From NCBI RefSeq assembly GCF_009914755.1, contig NC_060928.1: a stretch of 64,000 nt of DNA. The stretch is one strand, 5' to 3'. Both the position numbers and the translations under genes were made by a program. This document shows, one piece after another, positions 2,803 to 20,857 of the stretch; the stretch's first letter is position 1, and each line of letters starts with the position of its first letter. Source of the DNA: the human T2T-CHM13v2.0 reference genome, Homo sapiens. Below the pieces are notes generated by a model. It made no database searches. It worked only from the letters and a program-made list of their open reading frames with translations, and had not been told where the DNA came from.

Positions 2803-3243
2803 CTACCAGTGCCGCCACCACAAAAAGCAACCACAAATGCCATAACTGCCTTTACTATTACCACTACTGTCACACTGCCACTCTCATAACTGCCACCATA
2901 ATAACCACCATGACCACCACTACCACCAATGTTACCACAATCACCAACTATCGCCATTACCATCACCGCCCCAAACAACCACTAATATGTTGCCACCATT
3001 ACCACCACTGTCACCACTCCACCACTACCATCATTTTTACATAACCCTTCCATTACGATTGCCACTACCACCACCATCACCACAGTCATTAGTACTACCA
3101 TATTGCCATTGCAGCCAGCAACAACCACTAACACTGCTGCCACTACTAACCAACATCACTGTCACTACTGTGACCTCAATCACCATTATCATCATCACCA
3201 CTGACACCATTACCAGCGCTACCACCAACAGTCTCATTCTCAT
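2803..3243. repeat. Degenerate (CAC/CAT/ACT)n trinucleotide low-complexity tract
   Basis: ~440 bp of accaccactaccatcacc-type triplets; source of the Thr/His/Pro/Val-rich ORFs. Confidence 0.9.
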
Positions 3244-4027
3244 TCCTGAAATATGTTCCTAAACCTTCTCAAGCATTTTAGTAGTCATATTGGTCCCAGG
3301 TCAGAGTTCTCACATGTGTAAAATGAGTGATATTGGTAGCTATTGTTAATGTCAACTAAAGGGGCACTTTAATAAAAGCCCCTTTCCAAATGTTTAAGGA
3401 GAATTCTCCAGGTTCACAAAGAAAAATTAAATTTTAAATAGTTTCTTCCCCAATGGAACAAACAACAATAACACATACTGATACCTTTATTTAAAATATA
3501 TTGCCACTTGGGTCCTCAATATGTAAAGAGTTATTTGAAATTTCTTCCTGGGAGGAACAGAGAAGTTAAGATGGCATGATACGCAACTATGATGATGATC
3601 TTGTATTACTCCAGTTCTTAGTTTTACCCTATGTAGCTTATTCTTTCTAAAGAGTTTGCAGTTGAGGCTGAAAATACGAATAAGGCTACTTATAAGAATG
3701 TCAGAGTTCTGTGGTTAAAAGTATATCATCTTTTCTGTTAGTTTTTATATATTTGAAAGTTATGAAAGCAGCTAGAGTCAGATAGAAGTGTACCCAGGAC
3801 AGAGTTGATAGTGGAGCCAAAGAATAAAAAAACAAAAATGAACAGGGCTAGTGTTTTCCAAAACTTCTTCATATGGTTGAATCTCAGGCAATTGTGTTTT
3901 AAATTACATTTAGAGCATTTTTTCCAGGAGAAGAATAATAATAGAATTTGTATGCAATATAAAGATCATGATCACAGGCATCTATGGAGGAAAAGCTGTT
4001 GAACGATCAATTCTTTCCAACTTTTAA

Positions 4028-4830
<803 letters not shown>

Positions 4831-5685
4831 GAGAATATCACAGTAGGTAAATATTAGATTCCAAAAGTATATGAAAAAACAGCTGAGGAATGTGAAACAT
4901 AGAGAAAATTCTATTTGTTAGCAGTTCTCCCCCTACTCCTGTGACCTGAAAAAAATTCAATACTTTCTGAAGCATTTGGATCCACTTAGCTAGTGGAATA
5001 CCAGCATTTCATGGGAATATATGTAACTAGAACAACTAGTTAGGAGCCAACATGGCCATATCTGGTTTTGGAACAAAGTTTAACATGGAATTACGCCTAT
5101 GACTACACCAGAGTTTGGACTGAAGGTGTTACAAGAGTTGCAGTAAGGATGGTAGAATGATAGTGTGGTTGTAAGCATATTTTAGAGGATTTGTGCATGT
5201 GTGTTCCCTGTTATGTGCCTTCTACTCTCTTGGGATTCAGATCTGCTATGCACATGCAAAATTAAAGAAAGATATTTATAATGTGTTTTTAGGATGTATT
5301 AGAGGATAATGACAGAGTCCTGGTCTTGTACATGTTTTATTCTTTCTGTAGCTACAGAAGCATTGAAGAAGAGAAAGTACTACTGGTAGAAAACAAATAT
5401 AGAACTTCATGTTAGAGAAGCAGGACCCTAACTAATGAGCTCTGACAGTCTGATTTTTAATAGCGTATTTGTAGATATTTGACACTAAGTAGCTACGCTT
5501 CCACTTATCCTAAAAAGAACTATCACTTCTCTGACAGAATGATAGAGTAGAATTCTTTGTAAAAAATAAATAATTTTATGTACAGTTGTTTTTCAAGATT
5601 ATTTCAAAACACTTCCTTTTCTTAAAAATGAGTAGTAAATATTTTCTTATTTAGTTAAAATCCTGTTTCTCTTTATTTTTTAAAG

Positions 5686-5775
5686 CTGTCGTGTCATGAG
5701 AGAGCCACAATTCTTCAAACATATTTAACTGCTGGAGAGAATGGCTCAGAATCCCAGGTATCAGCTTCAGCACAC
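5686..5775 (+). other. Candidate internal exon (90 nt)
   Basis: Acceptor tgtttctctttattttttaaAG at 5684-85, donor CAC|gtaagt at 5775/5776; unique sequence; frame 0 open (LSCHERATILQTYLTAGENGSESQVSASAH), peptide not recognised. Confidence 0.4.
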
Positions 5776-10265: not shown

Positions 10266-11710
10266 TCTACTTTTTAGCTATTAAAAATAAAACTGCAATG
10301 AACATTCATGTATAGATTTTCTGTGTGAATATAACTTTTCATTTATCTGCAATAAATGCCCAAGAGTGAAATTTCTGGTTTATATAGTAAGTACACATTT
10401 TATTTCATAAGAAATTGCTTAACCTTTTAAGAGTGACTGCACCATTTTACATTCCCATTCATACATATGAACAATGTATGAGTGAGTGATCCAGTTTCTC
10501 TGCATCCTTGCCAGTGTTTAGTCTTGTCAGTAATTTTTATTTTAGCTATTCTCATAGGTGTGTAGTGGTATTTCATTGTAGTTTTAATTTGGATTTTCCT
10601 AATGGCTAATCATGATGAACATTTTTTCATATACTTATTTATCATCTATATATCCTCCTTGGTGAAATGCCAGTTTATATCTCTTGCCCATTTTCTAGTT
10701 GGATTGTCAATTTTTTTTCTTTTACAATTGAGTGTTCAGAATTCTTTGTATATTCTGGATACTATTCTTTTGTCAGACATGTGGTTTGCAAATATTTTCT
10801 TCCAGTCTGTAGCTTGTATTTTCATCTTATTTTTATGGTCTTTTACAAGACTGACGTTTTTAATTTTGATGAGACCTCATTAACAAGTTTTCCTTTTTGG
10901 ATTGTCCTTTTGGTGTAAAGTCTAAAAACTTCTTGCTTGACCCTGGATCCTGAAGATTTTTTCATGCTTTTTTTTGACAAGTTTTATAGTTTAACTTTTA
11001 AATATAAGAGCATTATATACTTTCAATTAATTTTTTTATAGGTGTGAGGTTTAGGTTAGGTTCATTTTTCTGCCTATCAATTGCTCCAGCACCATTTGTT
11101 GAAAAGACTTTTTTCACCTTTGAATTATTTTTGTACCATTGTAAAAAAAAATTTGTGTGGATCTGGGTTCTCTGTTCTGTTCTGTTGATCTACATGTTTA
11201 TCCAACCGTTAATACTGCACTGTCATTCTTAACTGTAGCTATATGGAAAGCCTCAATGTCAGAGTGTTCCCTCCCACTTTTTTCCTTGTCATGATTGAGA
11301 ACAAGCTTGGCTGTGTGTGCCAAAACCTTGCTGGGACTTTGATAGGAATTACATTAAGCCTATAGATCAATTTGGGGAAGAATTGACATCTTTATTATGT
11401 GAGCCTTCAAATCCATGAATATGGTATATCTCTTCATTTATTTAGTACTTTTTTGATTTTTTACATTAGTGTTTTGTAATTTTCAGCATATAATTTTTAC
11501 AGGTTTGTTCAGTGTATACTTTAGTATTTCATTTAGTATTTCATTTCTTTGGAATGATTGGAAATAGTATTCTGTTTTAAATTTTGATTTTCTTCTTTTC
11601 AATGTTAATTCATTAACAGAAATATACACTTTGTGTGTGTGTGTGTTGATCTTGTATTCAGCAACCTTGCTAAATGAATTTTTTTTTTCTGTAAAGCTTT
11701 TGGGGTTTGC

Positions 11711-12261
11711 TTTTTTTTAAAAAAAATTTATTTTTTAAAAGTTAATATGTGCATTTCAGGAAACTGAAAAACACAAGAGGCAAAGAACAAAGTCCTCTAT
11801 GATAACAAGTGGTTTACAGTTTGACATGTCCTTCTATGTCCTGTGTGTATGTAGACAAAATATCCTATTTTATGGGATTGAGATCATACAGTATGTATCA
11901 TGCTTTTTCACACATCATGAATATTTACCAATTTGAAATCCCAAAGCTATATGAGTATTTCGATAGCCAAAAATACACTACACCAACTCACCAACTACAC
12001 CTATTTTAGAAAAAAATGTAATCCTGCCTTCCCTGGGCCAAAATTTCATGGATGACAAAAATGACAACATGCCTCTAGATAAAAGCGTTGGCAGAGTTCT
12101 GATTTAAATACTGCATTCCCTTAATGCTCAATTTAAAATGAGACATAAACTGTAATCCAAGAACTTTGGGATGCTGAGGCAGGTGGCTTAACTTGAGGCC
12201 AGGAGTTTGAGACCAACCTGGCCAACATGGAGAAACCCTGTTTCGATTAAAAAAAAAAAAA

Positions 12262-12314
<53 letters not shown>

Positions 12315-12750
12315 GAAACATACAGCAACAGAATACATTAAGTATAATGTTTCTAAGAGAATTCATTAGCAGATCTGTACCATTAAAATATTAGCAAGGT
12401 GTGTTGTCATTGAATTACTTAACCTATTCCCATAGCACAGCCAAAAGAATTGCACATACATCAATGGCTATTGTCAAAATGTAAATATATATACATCTGT
12501 ATACATTTCTCCCTTTATACGTCCTTGTGCCCTTCTGCTGCCAACCTAGTGAGCAAGTCTTGCTATACACTGCTCAGAGGTGGTTTAACAATTTCATGTC
12601 CAAGGTGCATCTTTTCTATCAATTATAACAAAAATATATTTATAAATTGCTAATTCACTAGCTCTACTTTTTAACCTACATTGTCACCTCAGGACATTTA
12701 TAAAGCTTAGATGTTGCAAAATAATGAGCTTTGTCCACAATAAACACAGG
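11711..12750 (-). pseudogene. NORAD: Processed retrocopy of lncRNA NORAD, non-inverted 3'-terminal segment
   Basis: Minus strand reads CCTTGGACATGAAATTGTTAAACCACCTCTGAGCAGTGTATAG...TTTAAATTGAGCATTAAGGGAATGCAG...ATGCACATATTAACTTTTAAAAAATAAA, matching my recollection of the NORAD 3' end. AATAAA at 11727-32, A-tract at 11711-18. The symbol names the parent gene, not this locus. Confidence 0.85.
12150..12311 (+). mobile_element. 5'-truncated Alu left monomer (FLAM_C/AluJ-like) with tail turned into (TA)n(TG)n(TA)n, inserted in the retrocopy
   Basis: ctgtaatcc...ggccaggagtttgagacc...A-run; TSD aatgagacata (12137-47) / aatgaaacata (12312-22). Confidence 0.85.
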
Positions 12751-13837
12751 TTTACTCAACACTACTTTGTATACAGTGGACAAACTGAAGTCCTTATTTA
12801 AAACATTTAGTCTTTCCAGATGTTTAGAAGTGCACAAAATTGTTAAAAATAGAGGTAGTGAATAACACACTTTGCAGATATCCTTTTGATTCACATGAAA
12901 TGTTGTCTTTTAAAAATTAATCAAACCACTTCTCTGATCAGTACACATATTTATGCTGGTTCAAGGAGGAAGGAGGAGTAGAAAGTGCAAAGAGTTTTAT
13001 ACCAGTGTGTTTATGGCAAGGCACAAGTGACCATTGGCCCTTATGTCTGCATTTCCTTTTACAGTGCTGTGTATATAGCGTATATAAGCAAACAAACAAG
13101 TCCTAATTTACAACATCTAGTCTTTCTAGATGTTAGAGATGTTGTCAGTGTGTGACAAAAGGAGAGTCAGTAAAGTAATACATGGGAGTACACTTTGTGT
13201 TAAAATTCACAGGGAAGACGGTTATTAAAAACACAGAAGTGTAATTGTTAAAATCCCCTCTAAGTACTACAGATGCTTATACCTGTCCACTGGGTTGATA
13301 AAGTAGAAAGGGGAAGGGTTTTAGGCCATAATGTTTATTTTTAGAAAACACTTTCAAATTATAACCTGTGTTATATGTATGCATCATTTATTCAATGCTA
13401 CTGTGTATAGAGTGGAAAACTTATGTCCTATTTGAAACATCTAGTATTTCTAGGAAGTATGCAGGGAGAAGGGTTCTATGCCCGTCATTTACACTAGTTC
13501 AGTTGGTCTAATCATCACTCTATATGTGGATTTTTGTTAATATTGTTGAGTATTAAAGGATAAACAAGTCCTAATGCTCAAAGTATGTTAAAAGTAGAGT
13601 AGTAAAACAATCCCTTTATGAATGTTCTTTTGTTAATTTTTAGTGAGAACTGTCTTCTGGGAGTGACCTTTGTTAATCCACTTTTTGGAGCTAGGCATAG
13701 TCCTATACTTAGTCACTGGGATGGTGGAAGAGGGACAAGAGGAAGGGTAAAGGGAAGGGCTATTTGCTAGTATCTCTGTATCTAGAAGATAGTTTTAGAT
13801 GGTAGCCATAGGTCTATATGAGCATTTTTAGTAGAGT
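12751..13837 (+). pseudogene. NORAD: Processed retrocopy of NORAD, inverted upstream segment with repeat units
   Basis: Recurring TGTATAnA...GTCCT...AACATCTAGTCTTTCTAGATGTT module (gtcct anchors at 12790, 13100, 13425, 13568); GGATGGTGGAAGAGGGACAAGAGGAAGGG...TTTGCTAGTATCTC matches recalled NORAD sequence. Confidence 0.85.
13070..13077 (+). promoter_or_regulatory. PUMILIO response element (UGUANAUA) retained in the NORAD retrocopy
   Basis: TGTATATA followed by a degenerate second site CGTATATA (13079-86) and a perfect 9-bp hairpin at 13112-13134; relevant only if transcribed. Confidence 0.55.
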
Positions 13838-14266
13838 TCTTGAGATTTTCTATGTAAACAGTTAAGTCATGTGCAAATTGAGACAGTTTTTTCTTTTATT
13901 CATTATCTTGCCTTACCGTGGTGGCTAGAATTTGCAGTATTATGTTGAATAAGAGTGGTGAAACAGAGATCCTTCCTTTGTACCTGACCTTAGGGAAAAA
14001 ACATTCAATCTTTCACCATTAAGTATGACCTAGCATTTTTTAGATTCTCTTTATCAAGTTGAGAGAAAATCCCTCTATTCTTGACTTGGCTGGCAGTTTT
14101 TATGATTAATGGGTGTTGGATTCTATCAAATGCCTTTTCTGCATATAATAACGTTATATAATTATATGATCTTTTGAATTTACCTTGTTGTAACCAGGTT
14201 ACAGTGATTAATTTTTGAATGTTGAACCAGCCTCGCATACCTGGAATAAATCCCGTTTGGTGATAG

Positions 14267-14803
<537 letters not shown>

Positions 14804-19061: not shown

Positions 19062-20857
19062 CACTCCTAATGGCTATGGATCAGACTATCTACTGTTACA
19101 AATAAAAGGTTTTTTTTTTCAGTCATTGGCCATGCTGAAAACATTAAGTGATTTCCAACTCATAATTAATAGGGCAAATTTTCATTCAGGGACACATGCA
19201 ACAGCTTTCTTAGCTGTATGTTTACTTTTCTTCTGTGATAATATATCCAGATACAGCAAGTGAGAAAGGATGCTGAAAGTCTTTTTCAATGAAAATGATT
19301 TGGAACTATTAAATAAGAACAATGTTTTCCAAAATGTTTCTTGTAGAACACTAGTCCTTGAATATACTCCAAAGGAAAACATATAGTTATTTACCCATAA
19401 AAGTTTACCAAGGAATGATACTCAAATATCTCTCTTGAGTATTTACAATACATGAGAACATATTAAATATTCTAAATAATTCTGCCATAAAGAATTTTGG
19501 TTTTAACCTCAGCTTTTCTAATACTTGTCATAGATTTCTGGGTTTTAATACCACATGCTATTGTGTTACATCTGTGAGAAATGAAATTCCACTTGACTGT
19601 CATTACAATTGAACTTCCTAGTTTTGAATGCCACTTTCTATACTGAAAAATTAGTAAGAAAGTATTTTTCATATGAGTAATATTGTTTTGTAGGGCTTTA
19701 AGAATACATAGAATAAAATACATTTAGTCATGTTTTCCCTTTTTATTCTTATTCCCTACTGCAGTTATTAGCAAACTTAGCACCAACAGGGTGAACATTA
19801 ATTTGTATAGTTTTTCCTTCCTCTCCCTTAAAAATATATTGCATTATGTAAACTTCAGTTTATTTTCTCCTTAGGCTACCAAATTCACTTCATAAGTTTT
19901 GGAAGTCCTTTTTTCCACTACCAATATTTCTATATTTTTTCATAGAAACATTTCCTCACTCTGGTGAGGAAGAATAATCTCAGAAGAACAATCTTAGGCC
20001 CTTTCTTTTACCTTCAGTTTCTCCATTTTGTTTTTATTTTTCTCTTCTGCATTTTGAACCTGAACCAGAGATAAAATATAAGAAAGAATTTGAGGTTGAT
20101 GTCAGAAGCATTTCCAACAGGGCTAAGGAAGTATTTTTTTGGAAGGTGAGTGTGATTTATAATACCATGCAGGAGTAGTGGATATGCCACATGATGTCAT
20201 TCCTTTGTTTTTGTTTTCTAACTTGAAGAAAAATTTGTGATTTTTTACATTGGCATAGAAAATAAAAATAGAGCATTGACTAATATTTAAAAAATGATCC
20301 TGCTTACTTGATATGCTATCATCTTTTATTATGCTTTGCTTATAAGCAAAATTATTTCCTACTGTAGTTTTGCAATATAATATTGTAAAAGTATATTTGC
20401 CAAACACAATATTTGGAGTAAGTTAAAATTTATTATCTGTTTCATTAAATACTTTTACTGCTCTTGCCTTTTCTCCCTTCTCTCTTTTCTGGCATAACTA
20501 CCAGTAACTGTAAAGATATGTGAGCTGATATTTACAAAATGGCAGGCACCTTTTCCTGAGGACTGTCAATCAGTACCATTTGTGCGGATGAACCATTGCC
20601 AACTTCCATACACTAGGTTATTTTAAAAATAATGCTTAATTAAAAAAATCTAGTTGATGGTGATGGAATATTCTTTATTCTGGGTAAACTTTGTAAGTTT
20701 GGATTAAGACCACAAGATATCAAAACATTTGTGGGACCATATTGTGCTATTAGTTTGGCCCTCAAGAAATCAGAAGGTAACTCTGGTGTTCCAGGAACTA
20801 TTCAACCTGAGAATCTTAGTGTACTTAACTTTAATGAAGTAAGTTAAGTTATCTGAG

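What the first reader, a model, noticed from the sequence alone, without database searches (positions are those of the whole stretch)
11711..13837. Retrocopy of the PUMILIO-decoy lncRNA NORAD hidden inside an old L1
Seen: ~2.1 kb of non-TE, ORF-less sequence splits an L1M exactly (gcaaccttgctaaa... / ...tcttgagattttctatg). It carries a minus-strand AATAAA plus A-tract and a recurring ~310-325 bp module. Known: NORAD (LINC00657) is a single-exon lncRNA built from repeated units with UGUANAUA PUMILIO elements and short hairpins, and it has many retrocopies (HCG11 is a transcribed relative). Inference, from recalled sequence: this is a 5'-truncated NORAD retrocopy that ORF and TE annotation would both miss.
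Basis: partly seen in the sequence, partly recalled or inferred. Interest (0 to 1): 0.8.

Follow-up and report, generated by a model that had tools for sequence, protein, structure and literature searches.

The report
Old inverted NORAD retrocopy inside L1
This stretch is an ancient, broken, reverse-transcribed copy of the last 2 kb of the lncRNA NORAD that landed inside an old LINE element; it is one of dozens of such dead copies in the human genome and is ordinary.

Summary
Window 11711-13837 aligns to the NORAD locus on contig C20 in four collinear blocks at 80-85% identity. Published NORAD qPCR primers identify that locus.

The copy holds about the last 2.4 kb of the present-day RNA. The 3' part, with AATAAA and a short A-run, lies on the minus strand (12749-11711). 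The upstream part lies inverted on the plus strand (12750-13837). The two breakpoints abut in NORAD coordinates, which is the signature of twin priming.

A decayed target-site duplication of up to 21 bp flanks the insert. Both copies align to one segment of intact relatives of the host LINE. A left-monomer Alu with its own 15-bp duplication later entered at 12146-12305.

Substitution distance to NORAD is K2P 0.14. The copy's own tree branch is 0.10 substitutions per site, roughly 45-85 Myr by recalled rates.

Only 1 of the 5 parental PUMILIO elements survives. The copy lies in an intron of LINC02173, so it is probably inert.

NORAD pseudogenes are reported in print as numerous. I counted 46 other NORAD-like loci, a lower bound. 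Interest is low.

The parts
11690..11710 (.). Left copy of the target-site duplication (TGTAAAGCTTTTGGGGTTTGC), part of the host LINE.
   Evidence: It aligns to the same segment of the intact LINE relatives L028 and L020 as 13830-13850 does. It is 14 of 21 identical to the right copy.
11711..11718 (-). Remnant of the poly(A) tail (A8 on the minus strand). Four of these A residues are also templated in the parent.
   Evidence: Homology to the NORAD locus ends at window 11715 = L013 2110. Other retrocopies carry A-runs at the same site or up to 11 nt downstream of it.
11715..12145 (-). NORAD 3' end in the direct orientation, with sense on the minus strand. It includes AATAAA at 11732-11727. It matches L013 2110-2533.
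   Evidence: blastn: 84.5% over 433 columns, E 9e-134.
12146..12305 (+). Later insertion: a 5'-truncated Alu left monomer, then A14, then (AT)n(TG)n. It is flanked by a 15-bp duplication of NORAD sequence (12131-12145 and 12306-12320, both equal to L013 2519-2533).
   Evidence: Searches show both neighbouring blocks covering L013 2519-2533. One search shows query positions 461-591 hitting unrelated loci at 79-88%. One search reports the AT and TG tracts.
12306..12749 (-). NORAD direct segment, continued. It matches L013 2519 to about 2945 (RNA about 4498-4924).
   Evidence: blastn: 80.0% over 471 columns, E 7e-116. The last 13 columns of that alignment (12750-12762) belong to the inverted block.
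12750..13454 (+). Inverted NORAD segment with sense on the plus strand. It matches L013 4488-3799 (RNA about 2955-3644). It holds two full repeat units and most of a third, with stem-loop motifs at 12804, 13114 and 13438. The one surviving inherited PUMILIO element is at 13070-13077.
   Evidence: blastn: 81.2% over 723 columns, E 0.
13452..13837 (+). Inverted NORAD segment, continued. It matches L013 3318-2946. Between this block and the previous one the copy lacks about 190 nt of NORAD sequence, and it also lacks the Alu that the parent gained later.
   Evidence: blastn: 83.5% over 387 columns, E 3e-114. The deletion and its AGG microhomology are shown.
13830..13850 (.). Right copy of the target-site duplication (AGTAGAGTTCTTGAGATTTTC). 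Its first 8 nt also match NORAD (AGTAAAGT), giving microhomology at the internal priming site.

Best explanation
A NORAD transcript was reverse-transcribed and inserted by the LINE-1 machinery (target-primed reverse transcription) into the reverse-transcriptase region of an older antisense LINE. I estimate this happened about 45-85 million years ago.

The proposed sequence of events is as follows. The plus strand was nicked after ...TTTTC. That end primed on the NORAD poly(A) and copied the last ~835 nt of the RNA. The second nick lay up to 21 bp away on the other strand. Its 3' end annealed inside the RNA at AGUAAAGU and copied a further ~1.25 kb upstream (~1.54 kb in present-day NORAD coordinates, which include an Alu the parent gained later). 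This is twin priming. The two cDNAs were then joined.

The result is a 5'-truncated copy whose upstream half is inverted, flanked by a target-site duplication. Afterwards it lost ~190 nt, acquired an Alu left monomer and a dinucleotide microsatellite, and decayed at a neutral rate.

It now lies in intron 2 of LINC02173 and most likely does nothing.

Shown here: homology, block order and orientation, abutting breakpoints, the duplication, the 3' end at the parental poly(A) site, equal divergence of the two blocks, and loss of PUMILIO elements. Inferred: the order of the priming events, the date, and the lack of function.
For: Homology to the NORAD locus comes in four blocks, 80-85% identical, with E-values of 1e-114 or lower. 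The parent is identified by published primers. It carries 15 TGTANATA elements on the sense strand, matching the 'at least 15' stated in PMC7976429.

The geometry fits twin priming as described in PMC12016303 (passages read). The poly(A)-bearing block covers L013 2110 to about 2945. The inverted block covers L013 2946-4488. Its 2946 end lies next to the far target-site duplication, and its 4488 end is joined to the direct block.

The two blocks are equally diverged: K2P 0.143 +/- 0.013 over 1042 sites and 0.137 +/- 0.014 over 822 sites.

The two copies of the duplication both align to one segment of intact LINE relatives.

The 3' end coincides with the site where the other retrocopies carry their A-tails.

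In a maximum-likelihood tree of 27 sequences and 2081 columns, the copy leaves the NORAD lineage before L036, L034, L054, HCG11 and the younger copies. Supports on those nodes are 92-100. Its terminal branch is 0.101.

Decay: of the 5 parental PUMILIO elements in the covered region (L013 4470, 4167, 4158, 3849, 2843), only the one at window 13070 is intact. About 2.5 would be expected from exp(-0.10 x 7) per element, so nothing suggests conservation.

The hub's annotation places the copy in the intron between the exons at 5686-5775 and 20069-20145.
Against: The poly(A) remnant is only 8 A, and 4 of them are templated in the parent.

The duplication is badly decayed, at 14 of 21 identical. Its left limit cannot be fixed, because 13830-13837 matches both NORAD and the LINE.

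The inferred nick site (TTTC/T) is T-rich, but it is not one of the three consensus forms listed in PMC12016303.

The date rests on substitution rates that I recalled rather than measured. No orthologous locus in another species could be examined.

Transcription and PUMILIO binding were not testable here, so 'inert' is an inference.
Confidence: 0.93

Rival explanations
1. Two independent NORAD retrocopies inserted next to each other in opposite orientation, rather than a single twin-primed event.
For: Retrocopies of NORAD are very numerous. I counted 46 other loci, so neighbouring insertions are conceivable.
Against: The two blocks meet in NORAD coordinates at L013 2945/2946, with at most a 14-nt overlap. 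Only one poly(A)/AATAAA end exists. Only one pair of duplications flanks the whole insert. The divergences are equal.
Confidence: 0.03
2. A DNA-level (segmental) duplication of NORAD or HCG11, followed by an inversion.
For: None that is specific. At least one old NORAD copy was itself duplicated at the DNA level: there are twin hits at C17:47303231 and C17:47520768.
Against: Homology stops exactly at the parental poly(A) site and at an internal point. Both flanks are the two halves of one LINE with a duplication. A later inversion would need one breakpoint exactly at the end of the insert.
Confidence: 0.01
3. The copy has been co-opted. The plus-strand NORAD-sense units (12750-13837) lie on the same strand as LINC02173 and might supply PUMILIO- or SAM68-binding modules to its primary transcript or to an unannotated isoform.
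For: The strand is the same as the host lncRNA (hub annotation). One inherited PUMILIO element (13070) and an intact 8-bp stem-loop (13114) survive.
Against: 4 of the 5 inherited PUMILIO elements are lost. The terminal branch (0.101) is like those of its neighbours of similar depth (0.078-0.093 for L036, L034, L033, L045). The position is intronic. About 190 nt of a unit has been deleted.
Confidence: 0.03

Closest known systems
NORAD pseudogenes and HCG11 (Tichon et al. 2016, PMC4947167; Kopp et al. 2019, PMC6407921)
   Same: This copy derives from the same parent RNA and carries the same ~300-nt units with PUMILIO elements and stem-loops. [quoted passage not shown]
   Different: It is much older and shorter than the four copies singled out in print (>90% over >4 kb). 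K2P is 0.14, against 0.062 for HCG11. It is 5'-truncated to ~2 kb. It predates the Alu now present in NORAD and HCG11. It is the only one of the 42 loci I charted whose blocks are inverted relative to each other. It is not annotated in the RefSeq table supplied.
Twin-primed (5'-inverted) L1 insertions and processed pseudogenes (Ostertag and Kazazian 2001, cited through PMC12016303)
   Same: A direct poly(A)-primed segment sits beside an inverted, internally primed upstream segment. The breakpoints abut, there is microhomology at the joints, and a target-site duplication flanks the whole. PMC12016303 reports 5' inversions in 3 of 23 processed pseudogenes.
   Different: The template is a single-exon lncRNA, not an mRNA or L1. 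The hallmarks are eroded by age: a short A-run and a duplication that is 67% identical.

Membership tests
NORAD-derived sequence | Significant collinear alignment to the NORAD transcript region | tested here: met
   There are four blocks, 80-85% identical, with E-values of 1e-114 or lower, covering 2014 alignment columns.
NORAD-derived sequence | The matched locus really is NORAD | tested here: met
   Both published NORAD primers match exactly and convergently only in the C20 loci. The reverse primer also matches L016, a retrocopy on C3. The HCG11 reverse primer matches only C6:26.39M. The inferred length is ~5333 nt, against the published 5339.
NORAD-derived sequence | ~300-nt repeated units with PUMILIO elements and a long stem-loop | tested here: met
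   The module spacing is 310 and 324 nt. Stem-loop-like motifs lie at 12804, 13114 and 13438 on the plus strand. The PUMILIO elements are mostly mutated.
L1-mediated processed retrocopy | 3' end at the parent's polyadenylation site, with the signal | tested here: met
   AATAAA aligns with the parental hexamer. Homology ends at L013 2110, where other copies carry A-tails.
L1-mediated processed retrocopy | Poly(A) tail | tested here: inconclusive
   Only A8 remains, and 4 of those are templated in the parent. This is expected to shrink with age.
L1-mediated processed retrocopy | Target-site duplication of 5-25 bp | tested here: met
   11690-11710 and 13830-13850 both align to the same segment of intact LINE relatives, and 14 of 21 positions are identical.
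L1-mediated processed retrocopy | Endonuclease consensus at the first nick (TTTT/A, TTTT/G, TTTC/A) | tested here: inconclusive
   The inferred site is TTTTC/T. It is T-rich but is not a listed form.
L1-mediated processed retrocopy | Absence of the parent's introns | not testable with these tools
   NORAD has a single exon (PMC7976429), so this criterion carries no information.
Twin-priming 5' inversion | An inverted block from further upstream in the RNA, with its 3'-most point next to the far duplication and abutting the start of the direct block | tested here: met
   The direct block ends at L013 ~2945. The inverted block runs from 2946 (at 13837) to 4488 (at 12750).
Twin-priming 5' inversion | Both blocks of one age | tested here: met
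   K2P is 0.143 +/- 0.013 for one block and 0.137 +/- 0.014 for the other.
Functional PUMILIO decoy (NORAD-like activity) | High density of intact UGUANAUA elements on the sense strand | tested here: not met
   1 of 5 inherited elements is intact. One more arose by chance at 12488-12495 on the minus strand.
Functional PUMILIO decoy (NORAD-like activity) | Abundant cytoplasmic transcript bound by PUM1/PUM2 | not testable with these tools
   No expression or CLIP data were available here. The copy is intronic in LINC02173 (hub annotation).

The most novel reading that the evidence does not exclude
The plus-strand NORAD-sense units (12750-13837) are transcribed as part of LINC02173 or of an unannotated isoform. 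They keep enough of the unit architecture (one PUMILIO element, an intact long stem-loop that the parent itself has lost) to bind PUMILIO or SAM68. That would make this a co-opted fragment rather than a dead copy.
Probability: 0.03. Interest if true: 0.4.

Novelty: new member of a known kind. Interest (0 to 1): 0.18.

Why it matters
Mostly as housekeeping. Copies like this are missed by both gene and repeat annotation. They can also capture multi-mapping RNA-seq or CLIP reads meant for NORAD. The NORAD literature already works around this problem (PMC6407921).

There is a secondary use. The dated series of retrocopies, with K2P from 0.026 to 0.29, is a fossil record of NORAD itself. Here it shows that the parent gained an Alu and lost one unit's long stem-loop after this copy was made.

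Tried and rejected
Rfam: no lncRNA family matched. The only hits were sub-threshold ones, mir-297 on the (TG)n(TA)n tract and mir-1285 on the Alu. I treat both as repeat artefacts.

Pfam on whole-flank translations failed because of stop codons. Six stop-free pieces gave only a weak RVT_1 match, E 0.0084 and below the cut-off. The LINE identity of the host therefore rests on that match, on its copy number, and on my own recognition of L1 ORF2-like peptides, which is recalled and not tested. The subfamily name L1M was not checked.

A first attempt to compare the unit-10 stem-loop across copies picked up paralogous units and was discarded. It was redone with the long orthologous alignments. In that output the rows with 73% identity or less (L061, L062, L058, L037, L063, L055) are paralogous or doubtful and were not used.

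Literature searches for a catalogue of NORAD retrocopies found none. The terms were 'NORAD, retrocop, lncRNA' (1 paper, irrelevant on reading its passages) and 'LINC00657, processed pseudogene' (6 papers, listings only). This does not show that none exists.

Tichon's numbering of the 12 units could not be checked, because figures are not held. My count, which places the window's units at about the 9th to 11th, is an inference.

Full report
**What is there**

The window is human chr4 (hub note). Its assembly could be searched. Using window 12330-13837 as a DNA query against that genome gave 136 matches. Using 11690-12340 gave 47. The matches cluster at dozens of loci, including C20:37.77 Mb and C6:26.39 Mb.

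I fetched C20:37764500-37773500 as L013 and C6:26388500-26397500 as L014.

**Identity of the parent**

A paper comparing NORAD and HCG11 (PMC7976429; passages read) prints qPCR primers for both. It describes NORAD as single-exon, 5,339 nt long, at 20q11.23, with at least 15 PUMILIO elements.

Both NORAD primers match exactly and convergently only in loci taken from C20 (L004, L013, L018). The reverse primer also matches one retrocopy, L016. The HCG11 reverse primer matches only the C6:26.39 Mb loci (L008, L014).

The strand of L013 that the primers define as sense carries 15 TGTANATA elements.

Three near-full-length copies start at one point (q158-160 in my locus coordinates). This gives a transcript of about 5333 nt.

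L013 is therefore NORAD, on the minus strand of C20, and L014 is HCG11.

**Anatomy of the window's copy**

| Window | L013 | Orientation | Identity |
|---|---|---|---|
| 11715-12145 | 2110-2533 | same strand | 84.5% |
| 12306 to about 12749 | 2519 to about 2945 | same strand | 80.0% |
| 12750-13454 | 4488-3799 | opposite strand | 81.2% |
| 13452-13837 | 3318-2946 | opposite strand | 83.5% |

NORAD is antisense to L013. The first two blocks are therefore NORAD-sense on the window's minus strand. They end in AATAAA (11732-11727) and a short A-run. The last two blocks are NORAD-sense on the plus strand.

In RNA coordinates the direct part is about 4498-5333 and the inverted part is about 2955-4497.

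**Mechanism**

The layout is what twin priming predicts (description in PMC12016303; passages read). The poly(A)-primed cDNA is direct. An internally primed cDNA from further upstream is inverted.

The most 3' point of the inverted block (L013 2946) lies next to the far target-site duplication. It abuts the start of the direct block (L013 ~2945). Because of a TTTACT microhomology at the joint, an overlap of up to 14 nt cannot be excluded.

The 8 nt at 13830-13837 match both NORAD (AGTAAAGT) and the host LINE. That fits annealing of the second primer by microhomology.

The two blocks have equal distances to the parent: K2P 0.143 +/- 0.013 and 0.137 +/- 0.014. This argues for one event.

Of the 42 loci I charted against NORAD (40 fetched loci, HCG11 and the window), only the window has its non-Alu blocks in opposite orientations.

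**Insertion site**

The left flank (11300-11710) belongs to a high-copy repeat. There were 2411 first-look candidates, and the 40 scored ones matched at 70-82%.

In uninterrupted relatives, the window's left and right flanks map to adjacent positions. In L023, the left flank aligns up to locus position 1501 and the right flank from 1492.

In L028 and L020, both 11690-11710 and 13830-13850 align to the same ~21 nt. This is a decayed target-site duplication, 14 of 21 identical. That is about what two neutral copies of this age should retain.

On the plus strand the left copy is followed directly by T8. The first nick therefore lay after ...TTTTC. That site is T-rich, but it is not one of the three consensus forms listed in PMC12016303.

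A minus-strand frame of the right flank gives a weak RVT_1 match, E 0.0084 and below the cut-off. I recognise L1 ORF2-like peptides in the frames, but that is recall, not a test.

**Later events**

- *Alu monomer.* Window 12146-12305 is a 5'-truncated Alu left monomer with A14, (AT)n and (TG)n. It is flanked by a 15-bp duplication of NORAD sequence, since both neighbouring blocks cover L013 2519-2533.
- *Parental Alu.* The copy lacks 480 nt of the present NORAD locus. Of these, 289 nt are a full-length Alu in the parent (q3821-4109) with its own duplication. That Alu is also absent from other old copies (L054, L036, L034, L033, L048) and present in young ones (L014, L031, L051).
- *Window-specific deletion.* The other ~190 nt are deleted only in the window, between AGG microhomologies.

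**Age**

The substitution distance to NORAD is K2P 0.140 (1864 sites, 150 transitions, 86 transversions) and 0.133 without CpG sites. HCG11 stands at 0.062. The 38 copies measured range from 0.026 to 0.289.

I built an IQ-TREE from 27 sequences with at least 700 sites, over 2081 columns. The other 13 projected copies, with fewer sites, were left out.

The tree is comb-shaped. The window's copy leaves the NORAD lineage before L036, L034, L054, HCG11 and the younger copies, with supports of 92-100. Its terminal branch is 0.101. The path from its node to present-day NORAD is 0.063. The order among still older copies is poorly supported (20-84).

With recalled neutral rates of 1.2-2.2e-9 per site per year, the branch corresponds to roughly 45-85 Myr. 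This is an inference. No other species' genome could be examined.

**Function**

The covered part of NORAD holds 5 PUMILIO elements. Only the one at 13070 is intact in the window. The other four each carry one substitution. One new consensus match arose by chance, at 12488-12495 on the minus strand.

About half of the elements would be expected to survive neutrally on a 0.10 branch, so nothing suggests conservation.

The terminal branch is like those of neighbouring copies (0.078-0.093).

The copy lies in the LINC02173 intron between the exons at 5686-5775 and 20069-20145, and outside the RefSeq enhancer intervals (hub annotation).

No ORF exceeds 87 aa.

I conclude that it is a dead retrocopy. 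Expression and CLIP data were not available.

**Comparison with what is known**

Tichon et al. 2016 (PMC4947167; passages read) state that NORAD has 12 units of ~300 nt. [quoted passage not shown]

Kopp et al. [quoted passage not shown]

From the tables I counted 46 NORAD-like loci besides the parent and the window. This is a lower bound, since only 40 candidates are scored per search.

I found no paper that lists this copy. Supplements were not opened.

**Verdict**

The object is a new, individually undescribed member of a well-known kind. It is of low interest apart from its neat twin-priming anatomy and its use as a dated snapshot of ancestral NORAD.

Noticed in passing
L013 3492-3780 (NORAD locus on C20; q3821-4109): Present-day human NORAD contains a full-length dimeric Alu with its own target-site duplication (AAAAGTGCACAA). 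It is present in HCG11 (L014), L031 and L051. It is absent from L054 and from all older retrocopies charted, so it dates a step in NORAD's history.
   Followed up: partly
window 13098-13134; L013 about 4091-4141: The long stem-loop of this NORAD unit (CATCTAGTCTTTCTAGATG) is intact in the window's copy and in other old retrocopies (L036, L045, L048, L047, L052, L056, L066). It is 9 nt shorter, with the stem destroyed, in present-day NORAD and in the young copies L031, L014, L051 and L054. The parent therefore lost it after this copy was made.
   Followed up: partly
window 12146-12305: An Alu left-monomer fragment followed by A14, (AT)9 and (TG)11.5. Rfam gives sub-threshold mir-1285 (24.6 bits against 56) and mir-297 (33.3 against 90) matches here. 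These look like repeat artefacts.
   Followed up: partly
G000 C17:47303231-47304487 and C17:47520768-47522020: Two old NORAD-like copies give identical scores and block layouts about 217 kb apart. A retrocopy seems to have been carried along in a later segmental duplication.
   Followed up: no
window 14276-14497: A long (CCTT)n / (TCTTTC)n simple repeat lies within the host LINE, just right of the insertion. It makes a spurious 188-aa open frame on both strands.
   Followed up: no
L032 (C14:46.34M), L050 (C3:124.57M), L041, L067, L069: Several young NORAD retrocopies (K2P 0.04-0.05) are strongly 5'-truncated, to the last 0.2-1.4 kb. L032 starts within 2 nt of the end of the parental Alu (q4111).
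   Followed up: no
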